Part shown: positions 20,774 to 41,850 of the stretch, piece by piece
Numbering within the stretch: the first letter of the stretch is position 1
Layout of the letters: each line of letters begins with the position of its first letter
Origin: Candidatus Omnitrophota bacterium
GTDB taxonomy: Bacteria; Omnitrophota; Gorgyraeia; Duberdicusellales; 4484-171
Assembly: GCA_018826075.1 (NCBI GenBank)
Contig: JAHKAJ010000024.1
Coordinates: forward strand, 4,343-68,342
DNA length: 64,000 bases
Reading direction: 5' to 3'
Position numbers and translations under genes: made by a program
Notes under the pieces: generated by a model
Told to the model about the DNA's origin: nothing
The model's database searches: none
What the model saw: only the letters and a program-made list of their open reading frames with translations

Positions 20774-20802
20774 GTAGGGGCGACCCGCCGGGTCGCCCCT
20801 AC
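20774..20802 (+). repeat. REP-like palindrome copy 1 (GTAGGGGCGACCCG-C-CGGGTCGCCCCTAC)
   Basis: A perfect 14-bp inverted repeat with 1-nt centre. Near-identical copies lie at 29250-29280 and 41822-41850, all in same-strand intergenic gaps. Confidence 0.7.
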
Positions 20803-20826
20803 GGTGATTATCAACAAACAAGAGAT

Positions 20827-22797
20827 ATGAATTTTAGGTTGGTTAGCAAATTCAAACCAACCGGAGACCAGCCCCGGGCGATCAAAGCTATTGTTCAGCG
20901 CCTTAAGGAACAAAAGCCTTACACCACGCTTTTGGGGGTAACTGGTTCAGGTAAAACCTTTACTTTGGCCGCGGCAATCGAAAAGCTTGACCGGCCGGTC
21001 TTAGTTATTTCGCATAATAAGACTTTAGCCAGCCAGCTTTACGCCGAGTTCAGGGATTTTTTTCCGCAAAATTCGGTAGAATATTTTGTCAGTTATTACG
21101 ACTATTATCAGCCGGAAAGCTACATTCCTCAAACCGATACTTATATTGAGAAAGATGCTTCGATTAATGAACGCCTTGACCGCTTGAGGCTTTCGGCTAC
21201 CAGTTCCCTGGTCAGCCGCCGGGATGTATTAGTGGTGGCCTCGGTTTCCTGTATTTATAACCTCGGTTCGCCTGAGGATTACCAGAAGCTGACCTTAAAC
21301 CTTTCAGCCGGCCGGCCGCTTAAAACTGAAGAAGTCATCGCCGGTTTAGTCAGCCTGCAATATGAACGTAATGATTACGATTTTAAACCGGGAACTTTCC
21401 GTCTGAAGGGAGACAATCTAGATATTTTTCCTGCTTATCGCCAGCTGCCGTTGCGGTTTGAATTTTTTACTGACTGCCTTGAAAAGATCTATGAGTTTGA
21501 ATCATTGAGCGGTAAGAAAATTGCAAAGCTCGATAAAGTCAGCATCTATCCGGCAAAACATTTTATTATCGAAAAGGAACGGATCGAGTCAGCTTCCCAG
21601 GTGATAACCCGGGAGCTAAATCAGCACCTCGATTTTTTAAAAACCGAAGGTAAACTGCTTGAAGCCCAGCGTCTTAGGCAGCGTACCCTTTTTGATTTGG
21701 AGATGCTTAAAGAATGCGGATACTGTCATGGGATCGAAAACTATTCACGGCATTTATCCGGCCGTCCGTCCGGATCGCGGCCGTTTTGCCTGATCGATTA
21801 TTTTCCCGAAGATTTTATTACCCTGATTGATGAAAGCCACGTTACTGTACCTCAACTGCGCGGGATGTATGAAGGTGACCGTTCACGTAAACAGACTTTA
21901 GTCGATTATGGTTTTCGTCTGCCGTCTTGCTTGGATAACCGGCCTTTGCGGTTTGATGAGTTCCGGAAATTGACTAAACAGACGGTTTATGTTTCGGCAA
22001 CCCCGGCTGAGTTTGAAACCAACCTTTGCGGCGGCCAGATCGTGGAGCAGATAATCAGGCCGACTGGTTTGCCGGATCCGCAAATCCAGGTCCGGCCGAG
22101 TGAAAACCAGATCAGTGATTTGATCCAGGAGATCAAAAAACGGACTAAGAATAAAGAACGGACTTTAGTCACTACCTTGACTAAGCGGATGGCCGAAGAC
22201 CTGGCTGGATATTTATTTGAGGCCGGCCTGAAGGCTTCCTATATTCATTCAGAAATCGACACTTTGAAGCGTTCGCAGATCCTTAAAGACCTGCGTTTGA
22301 AAAAAATCGACATTTTAGTGGGAATAAATCTGTTACGTGAAGGTTTGGATTTACCCGAGGTATCCTTGGTAGCGATTCTTGATGCCGATAAAGAAGGGTT
22401 TTTGCGTTCAGCCAGCTCGTTGATTCAGGTGGCTGGCCGTTGTGCCCGCAATATAAACGGAAAAGTCATCATGTATGCCGATACCATTACTAAATCGATG
22501 CAGAAAGCGATCTCTGAAAGTAACCGGCGGCGCAAAACCCAGATTAGCTATAATGCCCGTCATAAAATCACACCGCGCAGTATCGTGAAGGCGATCGGCG
22601 AAGGTATCGAGGTCCATTTAAAAGAGGACTCTAAACTAAGCCGTTTTTTAGACATTTCCCCGGAGGAAAACGAACTTCTCGATATTATCAGCCAACTCCA
22701 GAAAGAGATGGATTTGGCGGCCAAGAGCTTGCATTTTGAGAAAGCCGCCGAACTCCGCGACAAAATAGCGGATTTACACAAAGCCTTGAAAAAGTGA
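20827..22797 (+). CDS. uvrB: Excinuclease ABC subunit B
   Basis: Walker A GVTGSGKTFT, helicase motifs, and a C-terminal UVR domain (…FEKAAELRDKIADL). Confidence 0.95.
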   Translation: MNFRLVSKFKPTGDQPRAIKAIVQRLKEQKPYTTLLGVTGSGKTFTLAAAIEKLDRPVLVISHNKTLASQLYAEFRDFFPQNSVEYFVSYYDYYQPESYIPQTDTYIEKDASINERLDRLRLSATSSLVSRRDVLVVASVSCIYNLGSPEDYQKLTLNLSAGRPLKTEEVIAGLVSLQYERNDYDFKPGTFRLKGDNLDIFPAYRQLPLRFEFFTDCLEKIYEFESLSGKKIAKLDKVSIYPAKHFIIEKERIESASQVITRELNQHLDFLKTEGKLLEAQRLRQRTLFDLEMLKECGYCHGIENYSRHLSGRPSGSRPFCLIDYFPEDFITLIDESHVTVPQLRGMYEGDRSRKQTLVDYGFRLPSCLDNRPLRFDEFRKLTKQTVYVSATPAEFETNLCGGQIVEQIIRPTGLPDPQIQVRPSENQISDLIQEIKKRTKNKERTLVTTLTKRMAEDLAGYLFEAGLKASYIHSEIDTLKRSQILKDLRLKKIDILVGINLLREGLDLPEVSLVAILDADKEGFLRSASSLIQVAGRCARNINGKVIMYADTITKSMQKAISESNRRRKTQISYNARHKITPRSIVKAIGEGIEVHLKEDSKLSRFLDISPEENELLDIISQLQKEMDLAAKSLHFEKAAELRDKIADLHKALKK

Positions 22798-22810
22798 TAT
22801 AATTATCGTT

Positions 22811-23563
22811 ATGATTGCTGTAGACATTGGAAATACTTATCTGCATTTTTTCGGGTTTAAAAACGGCGAGATTTTTAAGAGCTTAAGAATTCCAACTTTA
22901 GGGGTTACCAAAAATAAGATCAAAGAAACTTTGGCAAAGTTTCTTTCGGGGCCGGTGATCGTCTGTTCGGTTGTGCCGGGAATAAACCATTTGTTTCGGG
23001 GATTAAAGCTAAAAGTTTATTTCGTTGGTTCCCAGATCCGAGTCCCGATAATCTGCCAGTACAAAAAAACAGAAGTTGGCAGTGACCGGTTGGTTGCGGC
23101 CTTTGCCGCCCGAACCCTATTTAGCCAAACCCGGATAGTTATTGATTTTGGCACTGCCATAACTTTTGATTTTTTATCCAAGAATGGGCATTACCAGGGT
23201 GGTATTATTTTGCCGGGTATTGGCTCGACGCTTTCAGTATTTTCCAGTTGTGCTTTGCTGCCCAATCATATAAAATTAAAAAAAACCAATCGGATGATTC
23301 CTCGCAATACCCAGGAAAGCATCAGTAAGGGTTTGACCGAAGGGTTTCCGGCAATGATTAATACTTTAGTTAAAAAGTATATCAAGCTTTTAAAAATTTC
23401 CGCTGAACCAACAGTAGTCCTTACCGGCGGAGAAGCTTTTGGGATCAAATCAGCTTTAAATTTCCGTTACTATTACGAACCTTATTTGGTAGCCAAAGGC
23501 CTTTATTTTTTGGCAGCTAAATATGGCTTTACCGAACAGCCGCCGACAACCCCGAAAAATTAA
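22811..23563 (+). CDS. coaX: Type III pantothenate kinase
   Basis: N-terminus MIAVDIGNTYLHF and the ASKHA fold motifs (VIDFGTAITFD, LTGGEA) are present. Confidence 0.8.
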   Translation: MIAVDIGNTYLHFFGFKNGEIFKSLRIPTLGVTKNKIKETLAKFLSGPVIVCSVVPGINHLFRGLKLKVYFVGSQIRVPIICQYKKTEVGSDRLVAAFAARTLFSQTRIVIDFGTAITFDFLSKNGHYQGGIILPGIGSTLSVFSSCALLPNHIKLKKTNRMIPRNTQESISKGLTEGFPAMINTLVKKYIKLLKISAEPTVVLTGGEAFGIKSALNFRYYYEPYLVAKGLYFLAAKYGFTEQPPTTPKN

Positions 23564-23603
23564 AAAATTTCCTTGACAAGTTTTTAGGCTTGAGTAAAAT
23601 AGT

Positions 23604-23630
23604 TAGCAATCTCAGGTCGAGAGTGCTAAA
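23604..23630 (+). promoter_or_regulatory. CIRCE operator (HrcA binding site) upstream of groES
   Basis: TTAGCAATC-N9-GAGTGCTAA matches the CIRCE consensus TTAGCACTC-N9-GAGTGCTAA with 1 mismatch. It lies 17 nt upstream of the groES ATG. Confidence 0.8.
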
Positions 23631-23646
23631 CTAAGGAGGTGTTTGT

Positions 23647-23934
23647 ATGAAGTTTAAACCATTAGCTGACCGGATTCTCGTTAAGCCGCTTGAGGCCAAA
23701 GAGCAGACTAAAGGAGGGATAGTCCTTCCGGATACTGCCAAAGAAAAGCCCCAGGAAGGCGAAATCATTGCTGTGGGATCCGGTAAAAAAACCGATGACG
23801 GCAAAGTGATCGCGGTATCACTGAAGGCCGGTGACAAGGTCCTTTACGGAAAATATTCCGGGACTGAAATCACCTTGGACGGTGAAGAGTATTTGATCAT
23901 TCGGGAAGAAGATGTTTTAGGAATAGTGGGATAA
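23647..23934 (+). CDS. groES: Co-chaperonin GroES
   Basis: 95 aa with the mobile-loop region and conserved …KEKPQEGEI…GDKVLY. Confidence 0.95.
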
Positions 23935-23944
23935 GGAGGCGTAA

Positions 23945-25588
<1,644 letters not shown>

Positions 25589-25600
25589 TCGCTTGATTTG

Positions 25601-25640
25601 ATTTTTAATTAAGGGACACATCCTTAAAGGGTGTGTCCCT
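25601..25640 (+). terminator. Rho-independent terminator after groEL
   Basis: AAGGGACACATCC-TTAAA-GGGTGTGTCCCTT stem-loop followed by TTTATTTTTT. Confidence 0.7.
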
Positions 25641-25708
25641 TTTATTTTTTATGGATTTTTGTTTCAAACAGTGCTATAATAAATAAAAGTTTTTATACTT
25701 TGATTTTT

Positions 25709-27058
25709 ATGAATGAAACGCCTTTTTATCTGACTACTCTCGGTGCCGATAACCTGGAATTAGGTTTATTTCGCTATTCGCTTTTGCCCGAGGAAGGGTT
25801 TATCGCTTCTAATACTTCTTTATTTCGTCTGCTCGGCTATACCAACAAGGGGAATTTTCTCCAGAAAAAGTTAGCTGAACTCTTTTTTAACCCCCAGGAT
25901 AGCGATATTTTTTTTGAGCTCCTGCGTCGGAACCAAAAGGTCAAATTTTTCGAAGTTGCTTTTAAGAAAAAAGACGCTTCGCCGATCTGGATAGCCATCA
26001 CCGCTTCGCTTATTTTTTCCAGCGACCAGCGCCAGTGTTTAGAAGGGGTGGTCCAGGATATTTCTTATCAAAAACAGATGCAGAATAAGCTTTTAATGGA
26101 GAAAGATTTCTTGCAGGCCCTTTTTGACAATATCCCTGACGCGGTTTATTTTAAGGACCGTAACAACCGGATAATCAAAGTCAATAAATTTTACGTTAAA
26201 GGTACCGGCCTTGACGAAAAAAATATCGTCGGAAAGACTGATTTCCATTTTTTCCCTTACCAGCAAGCCAAAGAGATGTTTGAAGATGATAATCATGTTC
26301 TAAACACTGGAAAACCGATAGTCGGCAAGATCGAAAAAACCCAGTTGCCTGACGGCAGCTGGAACCAGGTCATTACTACTAAAATCCCGATGCATGATCG
26401 TGACGGAAAAATTATCGGCTCGATCGGTACTACCCGGGACATGACTGCCCATGCTAACCTGGAAGAAAAACGCCTGTTTATGGCCATAAATGCTTTAGAG
26501 GTTTTGGGTAAGGCCCTTGAGATGCGCGATCCTTACACTTTCAGCCATACCCGCCATGTAGCTAAAATCGCCGCAACCATTGCTAAAGCTTTAGGTTGGG
26601 ATGAAAACCGCCTTCTGGCTATGCAGTTAGCCGGCGAGCTTCATGATTTGGGAAAAATCAGTATCCCCTTGGATATTCTAAACAAGCCTGGAGATCTAAG
26701 TAATTTAGAATATGGTTTGATCAAGGAACATACTACTAATTGTTACAATTTGATCAAAGATATTGAATTTCCTTTTCCTCTGGCCGAAATCATCTACCAG
26801 CATCATGAGCGGCTTGACGGTTCTGGTTATCCTCGTAAGCTTTCCGGAAAAAAGATCCTGCCTGAAGCCCGCATCCTGGCGGTTAGCGATGTTTTAGAGG
26901 CCATGACTCATCACCGGCCATACCGGGCAGCTTTAGGCTTAAAAGCTGCCTGTAATGAGTTATCAACTAACAAAGGCACTAAGTACGATCCGGTTATTGT
27001 AGAGGTGCTGTTGAGCTTAGTCAAAAACAGCGGCGACAAAGAGTTTTGGCTAAACTAA
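25709..27058 (+). CDS. PAS domain - HD-GYP domain protein (probable c-di-GMP phosphodiesterase); start moved to MNETPFYL
   Basis: HD motif (HTRHVAKIA…HDLGK), HHERLDGSGYP (the GYP motif), and an upstream PAS-like region (LQALFDNIPDAVYFKDRNNRII). Confidence 0.8.
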   Translation: MNETPFYLTTLGADNLELGLFRYSLLPEEGFIASNTSLFRLLGYTNKGNFLQKKLAELFFNPQDSDIFFELLRRNQKVKFFEVAFKKKDASPIWIAITASLIFSSDQRQCLEGVVQDISYQKQMQNKLLMEKDFLQALFDNIPDAVYFKDRNNRIIKVNKFYVKGTGLDEKNIVGKTDFHFFPYQQAKEMFEDDNHVLNTGKPIVGKIEKTQLPDGSWNQVITTKIPMHDRDGKIIGSIGTTRDMTAHANLEEKRLFMAINALEVLGKALEMRDPYTFSHTRHVAKIAATIAKALGWDENRLLAMQLAGELHDLGKISIPLDILNKPGDLSNLEYGLIKEHTTNCYNLIKDIEFPFPLAEIIYQHHERLDGSGYPRKLSGKKILPEARILAVSDVLEAMTHHRPYRAALGLKAACNELSTNKGTKYDPVIVEVLLSLVKNSGDKEFWLN

Positions 27059-27216
27059 TTCGGGACACATCCCATTTAAATAGGTTATGGTTTTATTGCG
27101 TCATTTATACTCGATTAGCTTTTTGTGTTTTTTATTTATCGGTATTTGGGGTTTTTAAAATAGTCCTAATTGGTTAAACAAAACATGCAGTTTTTAAATG
27201 GGATGTGTCCCGAATT
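27057..27216 (+). repeat. 160-bp element bounded by perfect 24-bp terminal inverted repeats (AATTCGGGACACATCCCATTTAAA … TTTAAATGGGATGTGTCCCGAATT); MITE-like or long regulatory palindrome upstream of por operon
   Basis: The left arm 27057-27080 and right arm 27193-27216 are exact reverse complements. The 112-bp interior is AT-rich. The GGGACACATCC core is shared with the groEL terminator. Confidence 0.6.
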
Positions 27217-27257
27217 AGTTCTTGCTATTCTTTTATTTTGTGATATAACCAAACCTT

Positions 27258-27794
27258 ATGAAAGAAGCCAAAATTTTTGCTCGAGCCGGGCAGGGGGCGA
27301 TTACTACTGCAGCGATCCTCGGTGAAGCCCTGTTTTATGAAAATAAATACGCTTATGCTTTTCCGCATTTCGGAGCCGCGCGTATGGGGGCGCCGATGAA
27401 TGCTTTTTTACGCTTTGATTCCAAACCGATTCGTTTACGTTCTCAAGTATATAACCCAGACTATGTTATAGTGGTAGATCCGACTTTAATCAAAAGCCAA
27501 AATTGTTTCACCAATTTAAAAACCGGCGCAAAAGCGGTGGTGGCGGTGCGTGAAGCAACAGTTATTCCTAAAGTTGCCGGCGTCGATATCTATTCCTTAG
27601 AGGCAGAAAAAATTGCCATGGAGCTTATCGGCCGGCCGTTTGCTAATACTGTGTTGATTGGAGCTTTCGCCAAAATGAGCGGCGAGTTAAGCCTGGATTC
27701 AATATTTAAAGCGGTAACCAATGCCTTTGCTGAAAAGCCGGAGGTTTTGGAGAAGAACCTGGCGGCAGTAAAAAAGGGGTACGAAAGTGTTTAG
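27258..27794 (+). CDS. porC: Pyruvate/2-oxoacid:ferredoxin oxidoreductase gamma subunit
   Basis: 178-aa Pyr_Fd_oxred gamma-like sequence. It is first in the gamma-delta-alpha-beta gene order. Confidence 0.75.
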   Translation: MKEAKIFARAGQGAITTAAILGEALFYENKYAYAFPHFGAARMGAPMNAFLRFDSKPIRLRSQVYNPDYVIVVDPTLIKSQNCFTNLKTGAKAVVAVREATVIPKVAGVDIYSLEAEKIAMELIGRPFANTVLIGAFAKMSGELSLDSIFKAVTNAFAEKPEVLEKNLAAVKKGYESV

Positions 27795-28041
27795 TGTTTT
27801 AGCCAGTCGCGCGAAGACTTCTAAAGCAAATTTGACCGGTTCCTGGCGTTCAACCCAGAAACCGAAGTTTTTAAAAAAAGATTGTATTAATTGCGGATTA
27901 TGTAAATTCGTCTGTCCGGAAGGTTGCATTGAGGGTATCGAGAAGAATGCTTACGATACCGACCTTGACTATTGCAAAGGTTGCGGTCTTTGCGCCTACA
28001 TTTGTCCGAAGAAAGATATTGAGATGGTCTCTAATGATTAA
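27787..28041 (+). CDS. porD: Pyruvate:ferredoxin oxidoreductase delta subunit (2x[4Fe-4S] ferredoxin)
   Basis: Two CxxCxxCxxxCP motifs (CINCGLCKFVCP and CKGCGLCAYICP). Confidence 0.8.
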   Translation: MFSVLASRAKTSKANLTGSWRSTQKPKFLKKDCINCGLCKFVCPEGCIEGIEKNAYDTDLDYCKGCGLCAYICPKKDIEMVSND

Positions 28042-28066
28042 ATTTCGATCAGGAGGATTAATCTAA

Positions 28067-29242
28067 GTGAAACAGTTTCTTGAAGGTTCCTGGGCGGTGG
28101 CGCAAGCGACTAAACTTTGCCGTCCCGGCGTAGTAGCAGCTTATCCGATAACACCCCAGACTCATATTGTTGAGCATCTGGCCCAATTTATCGCCGACGG
28201 CGACCTGAAAGCGCAAACTCTGAATGTGGAAAGTGAACATTCGGCGGCTTCAGTAGTCCTGGGTTCACAGGCTGCCGGAGTCAGGAGTTTTACCTGTACT
28301 AGCTCTCAAGGCCTTCTTTTGATGGGTGAAGTTGTTTTTTGTATAGCCGGTATGCGGCTTCCGGTGATGATGGTCTGTGCTAACCGGGCGATTTCAGCAC
28401 CGATTAATATTTGGAATGATCAGCAGGATTCAATATCTTTACGGGATGCCGGTTGGATACAGTTTTATGCCGAAAACAATCAGGAAGCAGTAGACCTGAT
28501 CATTGCCGGCTACAAAATCGGCGAAAATCCTAAGATCATGCTTCCGATAATGGTCTGTATGGATGGTTTTATTTTGACTCATGGTATGGAAGTCGTAGAT
28601 GTCCCGGATCAGGCCGAGGTCGATAAATTTCTTCCCAGCTACAAACCGCCCTATAAACTAGATGTAAACGACCCGATGAGCTTCGGCCTTTTAGGTGATC
28701 CTACGGTTTATACGGAAACGCGTTTTGCGATCCAGGATACTTTTAAAGATTTGCTTAAGCTCATACCGGATGTCGGGGCCGAATACAGTAAAGTTTTTGG
28801 CCGCCAGAGCATAAGATTAGTTGAGGAATATCTTATGGAGGATGCTGATACCGTTTTGGTGGCTATGGGGTCGGTTTGCGGGACAATAAAAGATGTAATT
28901 GATCTTGAACGCCAGAAAGGCAAAAAGGTCGGCCTGCTTAAAGTAGTGACTTACCGTCCGTTTCCTAAAGAAGCGATAAAAAAATCTTTAGCTAAAGTTA
29001 AATCTATCGGCGTGTTGGATAAAGATATTTCTTTGGGTTCTGACGGAGCTTTGTTTACTGAAGTCAAGGCAATCACTCCTGAGGATAAAAAAATCAGCGG
29101 CTTTATCGCTGGTTTAGGCGGCCGGGATATTCGGCCGGAATCTATTGAAAAGATGATTGTTACAACTGAAAAAGGTTCGGGATCTTCTGAATTTATCGAC
29201 TTAAATAAAGATTTGCTGTGGAACGAATTCCGGGTGATATAG
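28067..29242 (+). CDS. porA: Pyruvate:ferredoxin oxidoreductase alpha subunit
   Basis: 391-aa PFOR domain I/II-like sequence (AYPITPQT…, GMRLPVMMV). Confidence 0.8.
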   Translation: MKQFLEGSWAVAQATKLCRPGVVAAYPITPQTHIVEHLAQFIADGDLKAQTLNVESEHSAASVVLGSQAAGVRSFTCTSSQGLLLMGEVVFCIAGMRLPVMMVCANRAISAPINIWNDQQDSISLRDAGWIQFYAENNQEAVDLIIAGYKIGENPKIMLPIMVCMDGFILTHGMEVVDVPDQAEVDKFLPSYKPPYKLDVNDPMSFGLLGDPTVYTETRFAIQDTFKDLLKLIPDVGAEYSKVFGRQSIRLVEEYLMEDADTVLVAMGSVCGTIKDVIDLERQKGKKVGLLKVVTYRPFPKEAIKKSLAKVKSIGVLDKDISLGSDGALFTEVKAITPEDKKISGFIAGLGGRDIRPESIEKMIVTTEKGSGSSEFIDLNKDLLWNEFRVI

Positions 29243-29249
29243 GCATATA

Positions 29250-29280
29250 TGTAGGGGCGACCCGACGGGTCGCCCCTACA
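29250..29280 (+). repeat. REP-like palindrome copy 2 (TGTAGGGGCGACCCG-A-CGGGTCGCCCCTACA), located inside the por operon between porA and porB
   Basis: Same palindrome as at 20774 and 41822. Only the central nucleotide differs. Confidence 0.7.
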
Positions 29281-29300
29281 GAACGAGGTAAAAGATAGAT

Positions 29301-30395: not shown

Positions 30396-30433
30396 AAAAA
30401 CCCCGTTTGAAGAGATTTAAACGGGGTATTTTT
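30396..30433. terminator. Bidirectional rho-independent terminator between convergent ferredoxin and ppiD-like genes
   Basis: AAAAA-CCCCGTTT-loop-AAACGGGG-TATTTTT. A-run and T-run flank the stem on both sides. Confidence 0.65.
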
Positions 30434-31943: not shown

Positions 31944-32299
31944 GGGGGTGTAAAGGCTTCGACGTACTGGCTAAATGAACGGCCGCATGCCGCGAGGGTA
32001 AGCCGCCCGCGTTAACGGGGCTTACAAAACACAAATGCAACACCTTACGTTGCTGAACCTGAATACGCGTTAAGCTAATCAGGGCACTGATATTCTTTAC
32101 CTCAAGGGGTATTAGTGTTTAAACTAAGAGGTTAGGATCCGGTTCTTTTGCTTTGAGAGCCTGGTCTGAAAACAAGAAAGCTGCTGCTCGGAGGATCTGG
32201 CCCTTTAGAGCCTTGGGGCTTAAGCTAAACAGAGGGATAAGCATGTAGTGGCTTTTCGTTGAACCTTTACGGACGCGGGTTCGATTCCCGCCACCTCCA
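31944..32299 (+). ncRNA. ssrA: tmRNA (SsrA)
   Basis: The 5' GGGGGTG pairs with the 3' CACCTCC to form a 7-bp acceptor stem with a G3:U70 pair. The 5' GGCTTCGACG is a D-analogue. A 3' T-arm GCGGGTTCGATTCCCGC is followed by discriminator A. An internal tag-like ORF reads …ANTNATPYVAEPEYALS-stop. A T-run follows. Confidence 0.85.
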
Positions 32300-32397
32300 G
32301 TTTTTATTTTTGCAAAGTAAAAAACGGTATGGTAAAATAAATTAAGTTTCAGTTAACTTTTTTTGTACAGAATTTTTTGTAAAACAAAGGGGGCAGG

Positions 32398-33158: not shown

Positions 33159-33232
33159 GGGCCCGTAGCTCAGCTGGTTAGAGCAGGACACTCATAATGT
33201 CTTGGTCCGGGGTTCGAGTCCCTGCGGGCCCA
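33159..33232 (+). tRNA. tRNA-Met (anticodon CAT; elongator-type, could alternatively be lysidine-modified tRNA-Ile2)
   Basis: Cloverleaf with acceptor GGGCCCG/CGGGCCC, D-arm GCTCAGCTGGTTAGAGC, anticodon loop CTCATAA and T-loop GGTTCGAGTCC. No encoded CCA. Confidence 0.85.
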
Positions 33233-33339: not shown

Positions 33340-33413
33340 GCGCGCATGGCTCAGTTGGCTAGAGCATTGCCTTCACATGGCAGGGATCGCTGGTTCAAGT
33401 CCAGCTGCGCGCA
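33340..33413 (+). tRNA. tRNA-Val (anticodon CAC)
   Basis: Acceptor GCGCGCA/TGCGCGC, D-arm GCTCAGTTGGCTAGAGC, anticodon loop TTCACAT and T-loop GGTTCAAGTCC. Confidence 0.85.
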
Positions 33414-34550: not shown

Positions 34551-34569
34551 CCTAATTAAGGAGGTAATA

Positions 34570-35325
34570 ATGAGTGGTCATTCAAAATGGGCAAGTATTA
34601 AACATAAAAAAGGAGCGGCTGACGCTAAACGCGGCCGCCTGTTTACAAAATTAATCCGGGAAATTACCGTAGCCGCCAAGTCCGGAGGTGGTAACTCCGA
34701 TACCAATCCCAGCCTGCGCACTGCTGTTTCCCGGGCCCAGGCCGCTAATATGCCTAAAGATAATATTGAGAAGGCAATTAAGAAAGGCACTGGCGAACTT
34801 CCCGGGGTAAACTATGAAAGCTGCGTTTTTGAAGGCTATGGCCCGGGAGGAGTTGCGATCATCGTTGATGTCCTTACTGATAATAAAAACCGGGCTTCTG
34901 CTGAAATCCGCAATATTTTTACTAAGCGTGGTGCCAATATGGCCGGCGCTGGCAGCGTAGCCTGGATTTTCACATCTAAAGGCTATATTTTGATCGATAA
35001 AGAGGTTATTTCTGAAGAGGAGCTTTTTTCGCTGTGTATTGATGCCGGAGCTGAAGACATAAAAGCTGCCGATAAAAGTTTTGAAGTTTATTGCGACCCT
35101 AAAGATTTTGAAAAAGTAAAAGCGGCTCTGGAAGCTAAAAAGATTACTTGGGAAGAGGCCGACCTGACTAAAGTTCCAAACTCTACTGTCCGAGTCGGCG
35201 GGCCAGAAGCCAAGCAACTCCTTTCGCTTGTCGAATCGCTGGAAGACCATGATGATGTCCAAAAGGTTTACGCTAACTTTGATATTCCTGATGATGTTTT
35301 AGAAAAGATAGCCCAGGAGATCTAA
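34570..35325 (+). CDS. yebC: YebC/PmpR family DNA-binding transcriptional regulator
   Basis: Highly conserved N-terminus MSGHSKWASIKHKKGAADAKRG. Confidence 0.95.
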   Translation: MSGHSKWASIKHKKGAADAKRGRLFTKLIREITVAAKSGGGNSDTNPSLRTAVSRAQAANMPKDNIEKAIKKGTGELPGVNYESCVFEGYGPGGVAIIVDVLTDNKNRASAEIRNIFTKRGANMAGAGSVAWIFTSKGYILIDKEVISEEELFSLCIDAGAEDIKAADKSFEVYCDPKDFEKVKAALEAKKITWEEADLTKVPNSTVRVGGPEAKQLLSLVESLEDHDDVQKVYANFDIPDDVLEKIAQEI

Positions 35326-35327
35326 GA

Positions 35328-35822
35328 GTGGTAGTTTTAGGGGTTGATGTCGGGATAAGAGTCTTAGGATACGTTCTTTGTAAACTACACGGTTTGGAGG
35401 TTAGCTTACTCAAAGAGAGCCAGATTAAACCCGACCCCAAAAAAACTTTACCTGAAAAACTGGGTTATATTTTTCAGGAGTTATCTGGTGATATTAGTCA
35501 ATATCAGCCCAAAGCCATAGTGGTTGAAAAACTTTATTCGCACTATCGTCATCCTACCACTTTAGGAGTTTTGGCCCAGGTGCGCGGCGCGGTAGCTTTG
35601 CTGGCTCATCAGCGGGCAGTAGATTTTTTTGAATATTCACCCACCCGGGCTCGTAAATCTTTTTTGGGAAAGGGAAGTGCTGATTCCCGCCAGGTTCAGC
35701 GGATGGCTGAAAATATCACCGGTAGGAGTTTTATTTCCGGGCACACCGCGGATGCGTTTTCTTTAGTGGTGGCTTTTTCCCATGCTCAAAAACTAAAAAA
35801 AGTGTTAGAGGGGGCTTTCTAA
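35328..35822 (+). CDS. ruvC: Crossover junction endodeoxyribonuclease RuvC (GTG start)
   Basis: VLGVDVGIRVLGYV fits the RuvC N-terminal catalytic Asp region. 164 aa, with RBS AGGAGA. Confidence 0.75.
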   Translation: MVVLGVDVGIRVLGYVLCKLHGLEVSLLKESQIKPDPKKTLPEKLGYIFQELSGDISQYQPKAIVVEKLYSHYRHPTTLGVLAQVRGAVALLAHQRAVDFFEYSPTRARKSFLGKGSADSRQVQRMAENITGRSFISGHTADAFSLVVAFSHAQKLKKVLEGAF

Positions 35823-35839
35823 AGCTTTGAAAATAGTTT

Positions 35840-36451
35840 ATGATCTATAAGCTTAAAGGTAAACTGGTCAAAAAAGAGGATCACCGAGTGATCATCGATG
35901 TTAACGGTATTTTTTATGAGGTGAATATACCGCAAACTGTTGCTAGGAACCTTAAACCCGATGCCAATAATAATGTTGAGTTGATCATTTATCATTATTT
36001 GTCGATGGATCAAAACCGGGGAATCCCGGTTTTAGTCGGATTCAGCGAAGAGTTGGAAAAAGATTTTTTTGAGAAGTTTATCAGCGTTACCGGAGTCGGG
36101 CCACGGGCAGCTTTAAAAGCATTTGAGGAACCAGTGCCAGCTATTGCCCAGGCGATTGAAAGAGGCGATTCAGGATTTCTTACTAGTTTAGTCGGTATCG
36201 GCAACCAGCGGGCTAAACAGATCATTGCTCATCTTCAGGGTAAAGTCGGCAGGTTTGCCCTTATCCGGACTGAAGAAACGAAACCCGAGCCTCAAAAAAC
36301 CGCAGTCATCGAAGAAGCCAAACAGATCTTGCGGCGCCTTCAATATAACCCGCGGGAAATCGAAACTATGATTGAGAAGGCGGTTTCCGCCAACTCCGGG
36401 TTGGGCAGCAGTGAAGAGTTATTAAATGAGATCTATCGTCAGAGGAAATAG
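35840..36451 (+). CDS. ruvA: Holliday junction branch migration protein RuvA
   Basis: N-terminus MIYKLKGKL…VIIDVNGIFYEVNI and an HhH domain (GVGPRAALKA). Confidence 0.85.
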   Translation: MIYKLKGKLVKKEDHRVIIDVNGIFYEVNIPQTVARNLKPDANNNVELIIYHYLSMDQNRGIPVLVGFSEELEKDFFEKFISVTGVGPRAALKAFEEPVPAIAQAIERGDSGFLTSLVGIGNQRAKQIIAHLQGKVGRFALIRTEETKPEPQKTAVIEEAKQILRRLQYNPREIETMIEKAVSANSGLGSSEELLNEIYRQRK

Positions 36452-36454
36452 ACT

Positions 36455-37018
36455 ATGGATAACCAAAAAATAAAATCGATTCTTGAATCCTTACTTTTTA
36501 TTAATGAACGACCGGTAGAGGTAAATGAGCTCTTGGATGTCCTTGAAGTCGGAAAAAAAGAGATCGAAGCTGCGGCTTCTGATCTGATCGAGGAGTATAA
36601 ACAACGTCAAAGCGGGATATCGATTGTGAAGGTAGCTGGCGGATATCAAATGTGTTCGACTCCCGACAATGAGCCTTGGGTTAAAAAGATGTACCAGGAG
36701 CGGACTAAACAAAAACTTTCTACGGCTTCACTGGAAACTTTGGCGATTGTGGCTTACAAACAGCCGATTACCCGTATCGAGGTCGAAGCTATCCGTGGCG
36801 TCAATATCGACGGTGTGGTAAAAAAGTTAACTGATGCCGGATTGATCAAAATCGGCGGTAGAAAAGATGTAGTCGGCCGGCCGTTTCTTTATATCACTAC
36901 CCGTAAATTTTTGGAATATTTTGGAATTAACAGCTTAAAAGACCTGCCTAAATTGGAAGATTTTGTTGCTTTGGCTGGCAAAGAACAGGAATCTCCGGCG
37001 CCGGCAGAGTCAGGATAA
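36455..37018 (+). CDS. scpB: Segregation and condensation protein B
   Basis: Tandem winged-helix ScpB architecture (…ILESLLFINERPV…, …YKQPITRIEVEAIRGV…). Confidence 0.8.
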   Translation: MDNQKIKSILESLLFINERPVEVNELLDVLEVGKKEIEAAASDLIEEYKQRQSGISIVKVAGGYQMCSTPDNEPWVKKMYQERTKQKLSTASLETLAIVAYKQPITRIEVEAIRGVNIDGVVKKLTDAGLIKIGGRKDVVGRPFLYITTRKFLEYFGINSLKDLPKLEDFVALAGKEQESPAPAESG

Positions 37019-37035
37019 ACAAAGGAGATTAAAGT

Positions 37036-38172
37036 ATGAAAAGTTATTTTGCCTCAGAATCAGTAACCGAAGGCCATCCGGATAAAGTTTGCGATCAGAT
37101 ATCTGACGCTGTTCTAGATATGGTTTTAACCAACGATACCAAAGGTAGGGTAGCCTGTGAGGCCTTGGTGACCCGCGGTTTGGTGATCGTGGCTGGAGAA
37201 ATAACCACTGATTGTTATGTGGGAGTGCCGAAGCTGGTCAGAAAACTGCTTAAAGATATCGGCTATGATGACCCGGCAGTAGGGTTTGATTATGAAAGCT
37301 GCGGGGTGATGACGGCAATCCAAGAGCAGTCAGCGGATATCGCCTTAGGTGTCGATACTGGCGGCGCCGGAGATCAGGGGCTGATGTTTGGTTTTGCCAA
37401 TAATGAAACTCCGGAGTTGATGCCGATGCCGATCATGCTTTCGCATAAACTGGTGCGCCGGCTTTCGGCAGTGCGTAAAGACGGGACTCTAAGCTATCTA
37501 CGTCCCGACGGTAAATCTCAAGTTTCGGTTGAATACGAAAACGGGATTCCCAAACGGGTAGATGCGATTGTTATCGGCGCTCACCACACTAAGGACGTAA
37601 AGACCGAAGACTTAAGGGCCGATGTCCGAAAATTAGTTATTGACCAGGTAGTTCCTAAACAGCTTTTGGATAGCAATTCTAAGATTTTTATAAATGGTAC
37701 CGGCCGGTTTGAGATCGGCGGCCCGGTTTCGGATACCGGAGTTACCGGAAGAAAAATAATCGTCGATACTTATGGCGGGTATGCCCGTCACGGCGGCGGG
37801 GCTTTTTCGGGAAAAGACCCGACCAAAGTCGACCGTTCAGCTTCTTATGTTTCTCGCTATGTAGCTAAAAACATCGTTAAGGCCGGGATCGCTACTGCTT
37901 GTGAAGTCCAGCTTTCCTATTGTATCGGTGTTGCTGAACCAGTGTCAGTAAATGTAAATACTTTCGGCACTGCCCAGGTCGATGAAGTTAAGATCGCTAA
38001 AGCGGTGAGAGAAGTATTTAAACTGACTCCAGCCGGAATCATCCAGGATTTAAAATTGCTGCAGCCGATTTATACAAAGGCGGCTGCTTACGGGCATTTC
38101 GGGCGTGAAGATGAGGGCTTTACCTGGGAAAACACCGATAAGGTCGATCAACTCAAGAGGGCTTTAAGATGA
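37036..38172 (+). CDS. metK: S-adenosylmethionine synthetase
   Basis: Has [24 protein letters not shown] and [16 protein letters not shown], the hallmark MetK motifs. Confidence 0.95.
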
Positions 38173-39434
38173 ATTACGATATTAAGGATAAAAATTTAGC
38201 TAAAATCGGAAAACAGAGGATTGAATGGGCAGTTCAGAGGATGCCGGTCCTAGAACAGATCCGGCAGCGTTTTTCCAGAGAGCAACCGTTAAAAGGCTTA
38301 ACCGTTGCTGCGTGTTTGCATATTACCACTGAAACTGCCGGTTTAGCGATTACCTTGAAAGCTGCCGGCGCCCGGGCTCTGTTTTGCGCATCCAATCCTT
38401 TATCAACCCAGGATGACACAGCAGCGTCATTAGTATTGGATTACGGAATAGAAGTCTTTGCGATTAATGCTGAAAATACAAAAGTCTATTATCAGCACAT
38501 TGATTCAGTTTTGGCAGTCAAACCCCAGATTACCTTAGATGACGGAGCAGATTTAGTTTCAACGATCCACAAGCGGGCAGCCGGTTCTGGTAAAGATTTT
38601 CACCTTCCTTGGGCTAGTACCGAAGAGACTACTACCGGCGTTATCCGCCTTAAAGCTTTGGAGAAAGAAGGCCGTCTGCTTTACCCGGTAATCGCGGTTA
38701 ATGATGCTTATACTAAACATCTGTTCGATAACCGTTATGGAACCGGCCAGTCAACTCTGGACGGGATCATTCGTTCGACCAACAAGTTGATTGCCGGGAC
38801 AACCGTGGTTATCTGCGGTTACGGCTGGTGTGGACGGGGAGCCTCTCAGAGAGCCAGGGGTATGGGTGCTAAGGTGGTTATTTGCGAAGTCGATCACTTA
38901 AAAGCCTTAGAAGCGGTTATGGACGGATTTTCAGTGATGCCGATGAAAGAAGCGGCAAAACTTGGCGATATCTTTATCACCGTTACCGGAGATATCAATG
39001 TTATCACTACCGAACATTTCCGGTTGATGAAAGATCAAGCCATAATTTCAAATTCCGGCCATTTTGATGTGGAAATCGATATTAAAAGCCTGGAAAAGAT
39101 CGCAGTTAAAAAACGCGAGGTTAAGCCCCTGGTGCGGGAATATACCCTTAAAGATAAAAAGCGGATTTATCTTTTAGGCGAAGGCCGTTTGGTAAATCTT
39201 GCCTGCGCTGAAGGCCATCCGGCCGAGGTAATGGATTTAAGTTTCGCTAACCAGGCTTTGAGTTGTGAATATATTGCCAAAAATAAGGATAAACTAAAGA
39301 AAAAAGTTTACAAGGTCCCTGATGTGATAGATCTAAAGGTCGCCGAACTAAAATTAAAATCACTGGGGATTAAAATCGATAAGCTTACGCTTGAGCAGAA
39401 AGCCTATTTGAGCGCCTGGCAGGAAGGGACTTAA
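38169..39434 (+). CDS. ahcY: Adenosylhomocysteinase
   Basis: AdoHcyase fold with NAD-binding GYGWCGRG, 421 aa. Coupled to metK. Confidence 0.9.
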
Positions 39435-39440
39435 AAAAAG

Positions 39441-40394
39441 ATGAAAAAGATTGCCGTTATAACTCGTGATTGTGCCGGAGTAAATGCTGCACTTCGGTCA
39501 GTGGTCCGTAGCGCCTCAGCCAAGGGTGTTGAAGTTTTAGGGGTTATGCGCGGCTATGACGGTTTGATTGACGCTGACCTGATGTCTTTGGATCGCCGGG
39601 CAGTTTCCGGGATAATAAATCGCGGAGGGACGATTTTAAAAACTTCCCGTTCTTTAAGGTTTAAATCGGCTAATTGGCAAAAGCAGGCAGTGATGACCAT
39701 CAGGGATCAGAGGATAGACGGTTTGATTGTAATCGGCGGCAATGGTTCTTTGACCGGCGCCCATATTTTAGCCAGCCGTTATTCAATACCGGTAGTCGGT
39801 ATTCCGGCAACCATTGACAATGATGTGAACGGGGTGACGATGACTATCGGGGCTGATACAGCGATCAATGTAGCCTTGGATGCTTTGGATAAAATACGCG
39901 ATACCGCAACTTCCCTGGAGCGTATTTTTGTGGTTGAGGTTATGGGCCGCAATTGCGGCTATATTGCTTTACGGGTAGCTTTGGCAGCCGGCTGTGAGGA
40001 TGTGATAATCCCCGAACGTAAATTTAACCTCAAGAAAATTTCTGAAAATATCGTAGAAGGCAACATTCGCGGCAAGCGCAGCTGGATTACAATTGTTGCT
40101 GAAGGAAAGGCTAAGGCTTCGAAAGTTGCTTCGGAGATCACCAGGCTAACCGGTTTGGAAACCAGGATCGTGGTATTAGGGCACGTTCAGCGCGGCGGCT
40201 CGCCTACTGCTTTTGACCGGATTTTGGCGGCTCGTTACGGACATTTTGCGGTTTCAGTCTTATTAAAAGGTAAAACCGACTGCTGCGTGGCTTTAAGAAA
40301 TGACCAATTGACCACGGTTAGCTTAGCCAAAGCTATCCAGAAAAAAGACATTGAAGCTAGTGAGTATTATAGACTTATTCAAATACTTACCTAA
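39441..40394 (+). CDS. pfkA: ATP-dependent 6-phosphofructokinase
   Basis: N-terminus MKKIAVITRDCAGVNAA, plus GGNGS, MGR and an F6P-binding region. Confidence 0.85.
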   Translation: MKKIAVITRDCAGVNAALRSVVRSASAKGVEVLGVMRGYDGLIDADLMSLDRRAVSGIINRGGTILKTSRSLRFKSANWQKQAVMTIRDQRIDGLIVIGGNGSLTGAHILASRYSIPVVGIPATIDNDVNGVTMTIGADTAINVALDALDKIRDTATSLERIFVVEVMGRNCGYIALRVALAAGCEDVIIPERKFNLKKISENIVEGNIRGKRSWITIVAEGKAKASKVASEITRLTGLETRIVVLGHVQRGGSPTAFDRILAARYGHFAVSVLLKGKTDCCVALRNDQLTTVSLAKAIQKKDIEASEYYRLIQILT

Positions 40395-40403
40395 GGAGGG
40401 GAA

Positions 40404-41807
40404 ATGATTTATACAAAAGAGGTAGAATTGCTCAATAACAAAGGTTTGAAAACCGTAGATGGACGAGTTAAAGTTATTGATGAGAAAGAATTTCGTGCTC
40501 ATATTATCGATAATCTTTTAGACACTATTGTGTTGGGCGTTGATCCGCATTTACGAAGATTGTCTTACTGGGTAGCTTACAGTGCCGGAGTCCAACTGGG
40601 AGTCGTTCCGGCTTCGATTCAGGAACTTTATACAGCTATGGGGCAGGGTAAAGTAAAAGGATTTACGGTTCCGGCGATGAATATCCGTACGCTTACTTTT
40701 GACCTGGCCAGGGCGGTTTTTCGGTCAGCTAAAAAAATCAATGCCGGAGCATTTATTTTTGAGATCGCCAAGAGCGAAATCGGCTATACTGACCAGCGTC
40801 CTTTGGAATATAGCTCGGTGATCACTTTGGCAGCGCTTAAAGAAGGCTATCACGGCCCGATTTTTATCCAGGGTGACCATTTTCAACTTAAGGCGGCAAA
40901 CTATCTAAAAGACCGTGAAAAAGAAATTTCTCAGTTAGAGGTTTTGCTCAAAGAGGCGATCTCGGCACATTTTTACAATATCGATATTGATTCTTCGACT
41001 TTAGTTGATTTATCTAAAGATAACCTTAACGAACAGCAAAGAAACAATTACGAAGTCTGTGTTGAGATCAGCCGGTATATACGCAAACTCCAGCCGGCTG
41101 GAATCAATATTTCTATCGGTGGCGAGATCGGCGAGGTGGGCGGTAAGAATTCAACCCCTGAGGAATTAGATGCTTTTATGCAAGGGTATCTAAATTCTCT
41201 GGGTTCACAAGCTGGTATTTCTAAAATCAGTATCCAGACCGGTACCAGCCATGGCGGGGTGGTCCTGCCTGACGGTTCAATCGCAAAGGTCAGTATTGAT
41301 TTTGATACTTTGGCCAAGCTTTCGGAAATTGCCAGGAAAAAATACGGTTTAGCCGGCGCTGTCCAGCATGGAGCTTCAACTTTGCCTAACGAAGCCTTTC
41401 ACCGTTTTTCAGAAGTCGGCTGTGCTGAAATTCACCTGGCCACCCAATTTCAAAATATGGTTTATGATTATTTGCCGTTGCCGCTTAAAGAAGAGATCTA
41501 TGCTTGGCTGCATACTAATTGTGCCGGTGAAAAAAAGCCTGATTGGACCGATGACCAGTTTATTTATAAAACTCGTAAAACTGCCCTTGGGCCGTTTAAA
41601 AAGAAGATCCACTCGCTTTCCCGGGAGCTAAAAGATAAGATATCTTTGGTTTTAGAAGAGGAATTTTCTTTTCTTTTTGAGCAGCTGAAAATAAAAGATA
41701 CTAAAAATTATGTTGACCAGTATATTACTTTGCTTAAAACCGAGAAAGAAAAAAATTATTTTTTGGGCGAAGAAAAAGATTTAGGCGAATTAGAAGGAGC
41801 GGATTGA
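40404..41807 (+). CDS. fba: Class II fructose/ketose-bisphosphate aldolase family protein (unusually long, 467 aa)
   Basis: IFIQGDHFQ (DH zinc ligand), [12 protein letters not shown] and [10 protein letters not shown] resemble class II FBA motifs. Placement directly after pfkA supports the call. Confidence 0.55.
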
Positions 41808-41821
41808 AATAATTTGTCACC

Positions 41822-41850
41822 GTAGGGGCGACCCGGCGGGTCGCCCCTAC
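41822..41850 (+). repeat. REP-like palindrome copy 3 (GTAGGGGCGACCCG-G-CGGGTCGCCCCTAC)
   Basis: Third copy, between the aldolase gene and ilvD. Confidence 0.7.

What the first reader, a model, noticed from the sequence alone, without database searches (positions are those of the whole stretch)
20774..41850. Three copies of a GTAGG-type 29-31-bp perfect palindrome (REP-like element), one inside the por operon
GTAGGGGCGACCCG-N-CGGGTCGCCCCTAC occurs at 20774-20802 (nadC/uvrB gap), 29250-29280 (porA/porB gap, inside an operon) and 41822-41850 (fba/ilvD gap). Only the central base differs. The 5' GTAG tetranucleotide and GC-rich stem are the hallmarks of REP sequences mobilised by RAYT (TnpA-REP) transposases. 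No RAYT gene lies in this window. The elements may also act as mRNA stabilisers or attenuators, for example by setting porCDA versus porB stoichiometry.
Basis: partly seen in the sequence, partly recalled or inferred. Interest (0 to 1): 0.55.

Follow-up and report, generated by a model that had tools for sequence, protein, structure and literature searches.

The report
RAYT-type double-foot REP hairpins
The three identical 29-base hairpins are copies of a small mobile palindrome (a "double-foot" REP) that in other bacteria lies in frame inside the gene of its presumed transposase (RAYT); this is a known kind of element, notable here because the exact sequence recurs across at least 17 phyla and differs in presence between near-identical strains.

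Summary
GTAGGGGCGACCCG-N-CGGGTCGCCCCTAC occurs exactly three times, against 0 expected by chance. Each copy lies 8-14 nt after a stop codon and 18-24 nt before the next start, between co-directional genes of a Candidatus Omnitrophota MAG.

The element is a GTAG-type "double-foot" REP of the kind described for TnpA-REP subclass 2.4, which is RAYT group 4 (Quentin et al. 2018).

- **Link to RAYT:** in 13 of those loci it lies in or beside a RAYT-like gene. In 9 intact genes it is in frame ([10 protein letters not shown]) just after the HUH motif.
- **Sister RAYTs:** these carry other palindromes at the same site, with changes that compensate on both arms.
- **Mobility:** strains about 99.9% identical to the window lack the nadC|uvrB and fba|ilvD copies but keep the por copy. 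Relatives at 75% identity lack the por copy.
- **Odd feature:** the alleles with and without the REP differ by 80-115 bp mosaic patches, not by clean 29-bp insertions.

No RAYT lies in the window, and none was identified for this species. Any regulatory role remains inferred. This is a new member of a known kind.

The parts
20774..20802 (.). REP copy 1 (centre C), 11 nt after the nadC stop and 24 nt before the uvrB ATG. It shares the flanks T...GGTGA with copy 3 in inverted orientation.
   Evidence: (I1, 35-nt identity). Absent in strains about 99.9% identical (L207, L208).
29251..29279 (.). REP copy 2 (centre A; palindrome extends to 29250-29280), 8 nt after the porA stop and 21 nt before the porB ATG, inside the por operon.
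   Evidence: Present in L213-L215 (99.97-100% identical). Absent in 75%-identical relatives L209-L211, where the gap is 2 nt.
41822..41850 (.). REP copy 3 (centre G on the + strand, which is C on the - strand), 14 nt after the aldolase stop and 18 nt before the ilvD ATG.
   Evidence: Absent in L212, L216, L217 and L218.
41808..41858 (+). 51-nt segment present in the window but absent from four near-identical relatives: AATAATTTGTCACC + 29-mer + AATAAATC.
   Evidence: Alignment A4, difference map, raw junctions.
41789..41868 (+). Mosaic patch around copy 3. It holds 9 of the 13 substitutions seen against L212 over 5.7 kb, including 6 synonymous changes in the last 7 aldolase codons and 3 changes next to the ilvD ribosome-binding site.
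20753..20865 (+). Mosaic patch around copy 1. It holds 21 of the 22 substitutions and all indels seen against L207 over 5.9 kb, and it changes the last nadC codons and the first 13 uvrB codons.
29243..29300 (+). The 58-nt porA|porB spacer that holds copy 2 and a separate GAGG ribosome-binding site for porB.

Best explanation
The three sequences are copies of a non-autonomous mobile DNA hairpin. It is a GTAG-type 'double-foot' REP: a 13-14 bp G+C-rich stem with GTAG at the 5' end and CTAC at the 3' end. It belongs to the REP class associated with TnpA-REP subclass 2.4, which is RAYT group 4.

The inferred mechanism follows the characterised group 2 and 3 RAYTs and IS200/IS605 TnpA. On single-stranded DNA the palindrome folds. 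A Y1 HUH transposase binds the stem and its GTAG foot, cuts a few bases outside the hairpin, and rejoins the piece elsewhere, usually just downstream of a gene.

In this RAYT lineage the same 29-mer is carried in frame inside the transposase gene, where it encodes [10 protein letters not shown] in a surface loop after the HUH strand. Enzyme and substrate therefore travel together, which would explain the identical sequence in many phyla.

In the Omnitrophota strain of the window the por copy is the older one. The nadC|uvrB and fba|ilvD copies were gained or lost very recently.

Once present, each copy is transcribed inside an operon as a hairpin of about -29 kcal/mol, 8-14 nt after a stop codon. 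It most likely acts as a barrier to 3'-exonucleases or a brake on translation termination for the upstream gene. At por it uncouples porB translation from porA.

What is shown: sequence identity, distribution, the RAYT association, in-frame embedding, compensatory variation, strain polymorphism, the fold and the lack of a T-run. What is inferred: catalysis by the RAYT, the cleavage sites and any effect on RNA.
For: - **Occurrence:** three perfect copies against 0 expected.
- **Distribution:** the exact 29-mer is in 120 or more loci of 78 assemblies from at least 17 phyla, with a truncated scan. Several assemblies hold 3-9 loci even so.
- **Flanks:** they are not conserved between genomes, but position -1 is a pyrimidine in 98 of 126 instances and +1 a purine in 92 of 126.
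- **RAYT association:** 13 of 120 8-kb loci carry a RAYT-like gene at the 29-mer. It is in frame as [10 protein letters not shown] after PNHxHGIIxI in 9 intact genes, directly upstream of the gene in 2, and inside frameshifted RAYT pseudogenes in 2.
- **Family identity:** NCBIfam REP_Tyr_transpos E 1e-16 to 5e-20 and Pfam Y1_Tnp. Sources name the proteins 'REP element-mobilizing transposase RayT'. The AF2 model has pLDDT 86, and its best PDB fold match is 4ER8, the E. coli RAYT with its REP. The REP-coded peptide falls in a low-confidence loop.
- **Selection on the DNA palindrome:** sister RAYTs carry VGA-x-RR-y-APT with x/y = T/V, Q/C, R/R, N/F or S/L. In 106 of 108 cases the pair is the one required by a DNA palindrome.
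- **Turnover:** empty sites exist in strains about 99.9% identical.
- **Placement:** the position close behind upstream ORFs between co-directional genes is the usual REP position (PMC3733652).
- **In-frame insertions in other genes:** seen in ValRS, an Fe-S oxidoreductase and a radical SAM protein of other genomes.
Against: - No RAYT lies in the 64-kb window. None could be tied to this species among the top hits of two family searches.
- The copy number in the whole genome is unknown.
- The REP-bearing and REP-free alleles are not clean 29-bp insertions. They are 80-115 bp patches with clustered substitutions, including synonymous changes in flanking codons. This fits import of a diverged allele by recombination better than a simple cut-and-paste in this strain.
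- No biochemical data exist for subclass 2.4 enzymes. The published assays cover groups 2 and 3 (PMC8266576).
- Here GTAG is base-paired within the stem, unlike the unpaired GTAG foot of E. coli REPs, so recognition may differ.
- The RAYT matches are below NCBIfam's equivalog cut-off (60-72 bits against 80).
Confidence: 0.8

Rival explanations
1. The copies in this strain did not arise by transposition here. REP-bearing intergenic alleles were imported, or REP-free ones were imported into the sister strains, by short-tract homologous recombination from a diverged relative. On this view the REP is a passenger of recombination, and no active RAYT is needed in this genome.
For: Against relatives that are otherwise about 99.9% identical, substitutions cluster tightly at the two polymorphic sites. 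There are 6 synonymous changes in the last 7 aldolase codons, 3 next to the ilvD ribosome-binding site, and a remodelled nadC end and uvrB start that includes a one-codon indel. A third small patch without a REP (45390-45414) shows that such tracts occur in this population. No RAYT was found for the species.
Against: This only moves the origin of the copies to a donor lineage. It does not explain why the same 29-mer is in 78 or more assemblies or why it is tied to RAYT genes. Copies 1 and 3 share 35 nt including non-palindromic flanks, which points to copying from one site to the other within a genome. No donor allele was found.
Confidence: 0.4
2. The hairpins are chiefly host regulatory RNA elements, such as mRNA stabilisers, barriers to decay within an operon or uncouplers of translation. 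They would be kept at these junctions because they set the ratio of upstream to downstream gene products.
For: All three lie in co-directional junctions, 8-14 nt after a stop codon, and leave the downstream ribosome-binding site free. The RNA hairpin is very stable, with centroid energies of -28.6 to -33.6 kcal/mol and z about -5. REPs are known to sit close behind upstream ORFs and are thought to act as RNA (PMC3733652). The por junction is tightly coupled in REP-free relatives.
Against: Two of the three copies are missing in strains about 99.9% identical, which have normal 10- and 22-nt junctions, so they are dispensable. The same sequence occurs in unrelated contexts, and inside coding regions, in many phyla. 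No expression data are available.
Confidence: 0.15
3. They are intrinsic transcription terminators or attenuators.
For: Each has a long G+C-rich stem.
Against: No T-run follows on either strand. The scan does not call them terminator-like, although it does find canonical hairpin-plus-T-run terminators nearby at 25611-25641 and 30400-30427. The por copy sits inside an operon whose subunits are all needed.
Confidence: 0.05
4. They are binding sites (operators) of a palindrome-recognising regulator, or an artefact of assembly.
For: A perfect dyad symmetry is typical of dimeric DNA-binding proteins.
Against: The flanking genes share no pathway. The identical sites occur in 17 or more phyla at non-orthologous positions and inside ORFs. 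Independent assemblies reproduce the sites, and short-read contigs break there, as expected for a real repeat.
Confidence: 0.02

Closest known systems
'Double foot' REPs of TnpA-REP subclass 2.4 (Quentin, Siguier, Chandler and Fichant 2018, PMC6006769), which is RAYT group 4 of Bertels et al. 2017 (PMC5581495)
   Same: The element has a 5' GT[AG]G and a 3' C[TC]AC at the two ends of a long stem with G-C pairs at its base. [quoted passage not shown] The protein motifs are NHxH, WQ and YIxxNP. The taxonomic distribution is patchy across many phyla, and the copy number is lower than for Pseudomonas or E. coli REPs.
   Different: Omnitrophota is not among the taxa the paper names for this subclass (Cyanobacteria, Bacteroidetes and 'various phyla'). 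The sections read here do not mention exact identity of one 29-mer across phyla. Nor do they mention the residue pairs that compensate on both arms, or polymorphism between strains with mosaic flanks.
Classical REP/BIME of E. coli (RAYT group 2) and REPINs of Pseudomonas (group 3)
   Same: Both have a GTAG foot, a G+C-rich hairpin, a position after stop codons between co-directional or convergent genes, and an association with a single-copy Y1 HUH transposase.
   Different: Classical REPs have one unpaired GTAG foot. They are imperfect (bulged) or short, usually come as inverted dimers (REPINs or BIMEs), are specific to a lineage and are mostly inherited vertically. The element here is a single perfect 29-nt palindrome with two paired feet, found unchanged in many phyla.
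Subterminal hairpins of IS200/IS605 elements and their MITE derivatives
   Same: Both are DNA hairpins recognised on single strands by a Y1 HUH enzyme. The fold of the associated protein is shared.
   Different: This element has no left and right ends bracketing a gene, the transposase is not flanked as in an IS, and no tnpB is present. The mobile unit is apparently the hairpin with a few flanking bases.
Rickettsia palindromic elements (RPE) and intragenic REPs (Di Nocera et al. 2013, PMC3733652)
   Same: Both are small palindromes that can insert in frame into protein-coding genes and are tolerated in loops. Two of the three frames on each strand of the 29-mer are open.
   Different: RPEs are longer, their sequence is unrelated, and they have no known dedicated transposase.

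Membership tests
GTAG-type REP (repetitive extragenic palindrome) | A short (20-40 bp) G+C-rich palindrome able to form a stem-loop | tested here: met
   29 nt with a 13-bp stem and 3-nt loop in the predicted fold. DNA -16.0 kcal/mol (z -5.4 to -6.3). RNA about -29 kcal/mol.
GTAG-type REP (repetitive extragenic palindrome) | A conserved GT[AG]G tetranucleotide at the foot of the hairpin | tested here: met
   GTAG at the 5' end and its complement CTAC at the 3' end of all copies. This is the 'double foot' form, in which the tetranucleotide is paired.
GTAG-type REP (repetitive extragenic palindrome) | Many copies dispersed in the intergenic space of one genome | tested here: inconclusive
   There are 3 copies in 64 kb, all intergenic. 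The whole genome could not be scanned. Other assemblies show 3-9 loci each in a truncated scan, and short-read contigs break at the element.
GTAG-type REP (repetitive extragenic palindrome) | Placement mainly between co-directional or convergent genes, close to the 3' end of the upstream ORF | tested here: met
   The copies lie 11, 8 and 14 nt after stop codons, and all three are between co-directional genes. Compare PMC3733652.
REP of TnpA-REP subclass 2.4 / RAYT group 4 | A cognate RAYT gene flanked by, or containing, the same REP | tested here: met
   This is met in other genomes. In 13 of 120 loci a RAYT-like gene lies at the 29-mer. In 9 of them the 29-mer is in frame inside the gene.
REP of TnpA-REP subclass 2.4 / RAYT group 4 | A cognate RAYT present in the same genome as the window | not testable with these tools
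   None lies in the window. The top hits of two family searches and one look-up of cluster members gave no Omnitrophota RAYT.
REP of TnpA-REP subclass 2.4 / RAYT group 4 | Protein motifs NH[IFV]H (HuH), WQ and YIxNNP (Y motif), with an insertion between beta3 and alphaC | tested here: met
   Alignments A1 and A6 show PNHxHGI, WQRNYYEH and YIxxNP, with a variable REP-coded insert after the HUH strand. The model places the insert in a loop.
Y1 HUH transposase superfamily (the protein partner) | The HUH/Y1 fold and significant similarity to family models | tested here: met
   NF047646 at E 1e-16 to 5e-20, below the equivalog cut-off. PF01797 for one protein. Foldseek gives 4ER8_A at E 6.6e-7, followed by IS608 and ISDra2 TnpA. 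A sequence-only PDB search found nothing.
Mobile element (any) | Presence/absence polymorphism at orthologous sites | tested here: met
   The nadC|uvrB and fba|ilvD copies are absent from strains about 99.9% identical. The por copy is absent from relatives at 75% identity. The flanks are mosaic, so the event type (transposition or recombination) is unresolved.
Intrinsic terminator | A G+C-rich hairpin followed by a T-run | tested here: not met
   There is no T-run, and the sites are not called by the scan that finds true terminators nearby.
Rfam RNA families | A match to a curated covariance model | tested here: not met
   Only tmRNA and three tRNAs reach the gathering score in the window. Nothing matches at the three sites.

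The most novel reading that the evidence does not exclude
The RAYT gene carries its own substrate as a coding hairpin. On this reading the in-frame 29-mer ([10 protein letters not shown]) is the heritable master copy that seeds a genome with REPs after horizontal transfer. It is kept palindromic by selection at the DNA level, seen as the residue pairs T/V, Q/C, R/R, N/F and S/L that compensate on both arms. This would make one exact 29-mer a pan-bacterial mobile sequence present in at least 17 phyla. New copies may enter operon junctions through short templated patches (51 nt inserted, with 80-115 bp of remodelled flanks) rather than by the clean single-strand cut-and-paste known for IS200/IS605. 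That would point to an integration route not yet described for REPs.
Probability: 0.25. Interest if true: 0.6.

Novelty: new member of a known kind. Interest (0 to 1): 0.4.

Why it matters
- **Placing the element:** the result puts an unannotated repeat of an uncultured phylum (Omnitrophota) in a defined class of mobile element and links it to its probable enzyme.
- **Annotation:** it explains a nuisance in MAG annotation, where contigs break at the palindrome and spurious peptides such as '[10 protein letters not shown]' or 'RGDPPGRPY' appear.
- **Natural comparisons:** three pairs of REP-bearing and REP-free junctions are now available, two of them in near-identical strains (nadC|uvrB, fba|ilvD) and the por pair only against relatives about 75% identical. 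They would let the long-standing question of what REPs do to operon expression be tested without genetics.
- **Evolution:** the exact conservation across phyla and the in-gene location are useful for studying how group 4 RAYTs spread and recognise their substrates. No biochemistry exists for this group.

Tried and rejected
- **Terminator reading:** rejected. There is no T-run and the sites are not called by the scan.
- **Known RNA family:** none at the sites.
- **Longer conserved element around the 29-mer:** rejected across genomes, because the flanks are unrelated apart from a pyrimidine at -1 and a purine at +1. Within single genomes the core is often part of a longer genome-specific repeat, as in the CAJXGR, CAZZAO and CALGYR loci, and in copies 1 and 3 of the window.
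- **Literature search for the sequence or its peptides:** no relevant paper.
- **Source organism among the 120 genome loci:** not present. The best nucleotide identity was 76%.
- **Hunting the RAYT of this species:** the look-up of P0074 gave another assembly. The second family search and the cluster look-up gave no Omnitrophota entry. Walking off both window ends failed because the ORF products as I delimited them are not on record.
- **Sequence-only PDB search:** no hits, so a fold search was used instead.
- **First structure job:** It was repeated with P0005 as the first row.
- **Metagenome relatives of PorB:** only 70% identity or less. They were useful for junction lengths but not as empty sites. 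The empty sites came from 90%-identity cluster members.
- **Paper showing that REPs within about 15 nt of a stop codon lower translation of the upstream gene:** not found in the library. That point rests on my own recollection of work in E. coli.

Full report
**1. The observation**

The pattern GTAGGGGCGACCCG-N-CGGGTCGCCCCTAC occurs exactly three times in the window: 20774-20802, 29251-29279 and 41822-41850. The centre base is C, A and G respectively. There are no extra hits at up to three mismatches and none in 100 shuffles.

Copy 2 is extended by one further pair to 31 nt. The arm and the GTAGGGGC foot occur nowhere else in the window, so there are no decayed copies.

The window is about 43% G+C, and almost all genes are on the + strand. 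Each copy lies in a 58-65 nt gap between co-directional genes. The distances are 11, 8 and 14 nt after the stop codon, and 24, 21 and 18 nt before the next ATG. The downstream ribosome-binding site is left free.

The organism is a Candidatus Omnitrophota MAG, according to the source names of identical proteins. Independent assemblies reproduce the sites base for base. Short-read contigs end at the palindrome.

**2. What it is**

These come from 78 assemblies. They include Chloroflexota, Planctomycetota, Nitrospirota, Desulfobacterota, Gemmatimonadota, Spirochaetota, Acidobacteriota, Zixibacteria, Armatimonadota, Bacteroidota/Ignavibacteria, Myxococcota, Latescibacterota, Nitrospinota, Methylomirabilota, Edwardsbacteria and Pseudomonadota. 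One viral-catalogue contig also carries it.

The flanks are unrelated between genomes. The only regularity is a pyrimidine at -1 (98 of 126 instances) and a purine at +1 (92 of 126). Within some genomes the 29-mer is the core of a longer repeat specific to that genome. In the window, copies 1 and 3 share 35 nt in inverted orientation (T-REP-GGTGA).

Reading the flanks showed 'PNHVHGIIWI' coding sequence next to several copies. tblastn with that ORF found a RAYT-like gene at the 29-mer in 13 of the 120 loci.

| Arrangement | Loci |
|---|---|
| 29-mer in frame inside an intact gene, encoding [10 protein letters not shown] after the HUH strand | 9 |
| 29-mer just upstream of the gene | 2 |
| 29-mer inside a frameshifted RAYT pseudogene | 2 |

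The centre base is the third position of an Arg codon.

The proteins match NCBIfam REP_Tyr_transpos (E 1e-16 to 5e-20, below the equivalog cut-off) and, for one, Pfam Y1_Tnp. Their sources call them 'REP element-mobilizing transposase RayT'.

An AlphaFold model (pLDDT 86) is closest in fold to 4ER8, the E. coli RAYT bound to its REP, and next to IS608 and ISDra2 TnpA. The REP-coded peptide sits in a low-confidence loop.

The family is very large, with at least 8000 clusters. Of the 120 best hits, 64 contain [10 protein letters not shown]. Others carry VGAQRRCAPT, VGARRRRAPT, VGANRRFAPT or VGASRRLAPT at the same place. These residue pairs are exactly those a DNA palindrome imposes, in 106 of 108 cases. 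The hairpin inside the gene is therefore maintained at the DNA level.

**3. Comparison with the literature**

Quentin et al. 2018 describe TnpA-Y1 subclass 2.4, which is Bertels' RAYT group 4. Its motifs are NH[IFV]H, WQ and YIxNNP. It has 'double foot' REPs, with a 5' GT[AG]G and a 3' C[TC]AC. [quoted passage not shown] It occurs in Cyanobacteria, Bacteroidetes and 'various phyla'.

Bertels et al. report group 4 in 61 species from 17 classes.

The placement of the window copies, close behind the upstream ORF between co-directional genes, is the usual one for REPs. In-frame REPs in housekeeping genes are also known (PMC3733652). I saw such insertions of this 29-mer in a valyl-tRNA synthetase, an Fe-S oxidoreductase and a radical SAM protein of other genomes.

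Biochemistry exists only for groups 2 and 3. There, cleavage at C|T or C|A near the hairpin is guided by GTAG (PMC8266576).

**4. Evidence for turnover in this lineage**

Cluster members at 90% identity or more gave orthologous loci.

- **fba|ilvD:** four relatives (L212, L216, L217, L218) have a 10-nt junction, TGA-GGAGGTAATT-ATG. The window has 51 extra nt, namely AATAATTTGTCACC + REP + AATAAATC.
- **nadC|uvrB:** L207 and L208 have a 22-nt gap without the REP.
- **porA|porB:** the copy is present in L213-L215. L213 lies on the same contig as the REP-free nadC|uvrB site of L207. The copy is absent from relatives at 75% identity, where the porA stop and the porB ATG are 2 nt apart.
- **More distant metagenome relatives:** of 25 por junctions evaluated, 14 overlap or abut and 6 have gaps of 2-20 nt.

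The por copy is therefore older, and the other two are polymorphic between strains about 99.9% identical.

An unexpected point is that the alleles with and without the REP are not clean insertions. Nearly all substitutions in the compared 5.7-5.9 kb cluster at the REP sites.

- At fba|ilvD the cluster spans 41789-41868 and includes six synonymous changes in the last seven aldolase codons.
- At nadC|uvrB it spans 20753-20865 and includes a one-codon indel in uvrB.

The clustering suggests exchange of diverged alleles by short-tract recombination, or an insertion process that remodels the flanks. I could not decide between the two.

**5. How it most likely works**

By analogy with characterised RAYTs and IS200/IS605 TnpA, the palindrome folds on single-stranded DNA (-16 kcal/mol). 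The Y1 HUH enzyme recognises the stem and the GTAG foot, then cuts and rejoins a few bases outside it. This would explain the short genome-specific flanks that travel with the core.

Because the REP is embedded in the RAYT ORF, enzyme and substrate are transferred together. That accounts for the identical sequence across phyla. All of this is inference.

As RNA, each copy is a hairpin of about -29 kcal/mol with no T-run. It is not a canonical terminator; true terminators with T-runs lie at 25611-25641 and 30400-30427. The most likely effects are protection of the upstream mRNA segment from 3' exonucleases and interference with termination at a stop codon only 8-14 nt away. These effects are known for E. 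coli REPs. That statement rests on my own knowledge and was not retrievable here. At por, the tight porA-porB junction seen in relatives is lost. None of this could be tested.

**6. Verdict**

The element is a new member, in a new host phylum, of a known kind. Two features are probably under-described: exact identity of one 29-mer across many phyla, and mosaic alleles with and without the REP.

Still open are a RAYT in this genome, the copy number in the whole genome, the cleavage chemistry and the RNA-level effects.

Noticed in passing
window 25611-25641; 27053-27093 and 27180-27220: A second small repeat with the core GGGACACATCC has four occurrences. One pair forms a terminator-like hairpin with a T-run after ORF 23948-25588. 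The other pair forms the arms of a 41-nt inverted repeat (85% complementary, 86 nt apart) just upstream of porC.
   Followed up: partly
window 45390-45414: Four substitutions against L212 cluster within 25 nt in a region that is otherwise identical, and no REP is present. This shows that short mosaic tracts occur in this population apart from the REP sites.
   Followed up: no
window 31944-32302; 33159-33232; 33340-33413; 53860-53932: A tmRNA gene and three tRNA genes are the only Rfam matches in the window.
   Followed up: no
window 11252-13501 (and 9704-11248): A large ORF holds about 9-11 diverged tandem repeats of roughly 120-140 nt that encode a recurring 'NPNTNECWV'-like motif. A Gly-rich repeat lies at 9118-9410 (families D1-D4 and D7).
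   Followed up: no
L025 7626; L030 6345; L116 3345: The same 29-mer is inserted in frame as [10 protein letters not shown] into genes other than RAYT in other phyla. By eye these are a valyl-tRNA synthetase, an Fe-S oxidoreductase and a radical SAM protein.
   Followed up: partly
L031 1596-1950; L064 4250-4470; P0033, P0077, P0111: Many RAYT genes carry 1.5 or more copies, or tandem half-copies, of the palindrome (for example [17 protein letters not shown], and repeated RVVPT units). A partial copy also lies next to a full one upstream of the L031 RAYT. This suggests slippage or abortive cleavage and rejoining at the hairpin.
   Followed up: no
L047, L053, L093 (Phototrophicaceae MAG JBMOFU01): Other GTAGGGGC-footed palindromes, such as GTAGGGGCGCAGCGC... 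which corresponds to VGAQRRCAPT, lie within 30 nt of the 29-mer. Several sister REP families therefore coexist in one genome.
   Followed up: no
L152 909-968; L144 1254-1450; L138 1295-1387: In other lineages the porA|porB junction holds different insertions: an unrelated palindrome (CCCACCCTGAC...GTCAGGGTGGG), a 195-nt repeat-rich spacer and a 91-nt A+T-rich spacer. This operon junction has been invaded repeatedly.
   Followed up: no
L001 60-88 (IMG/VR UViG_3300005573_001167): One contig in the viral catalogue carries the exact 29-mer near its end, in a G+C-rich context.
   Followed up: no
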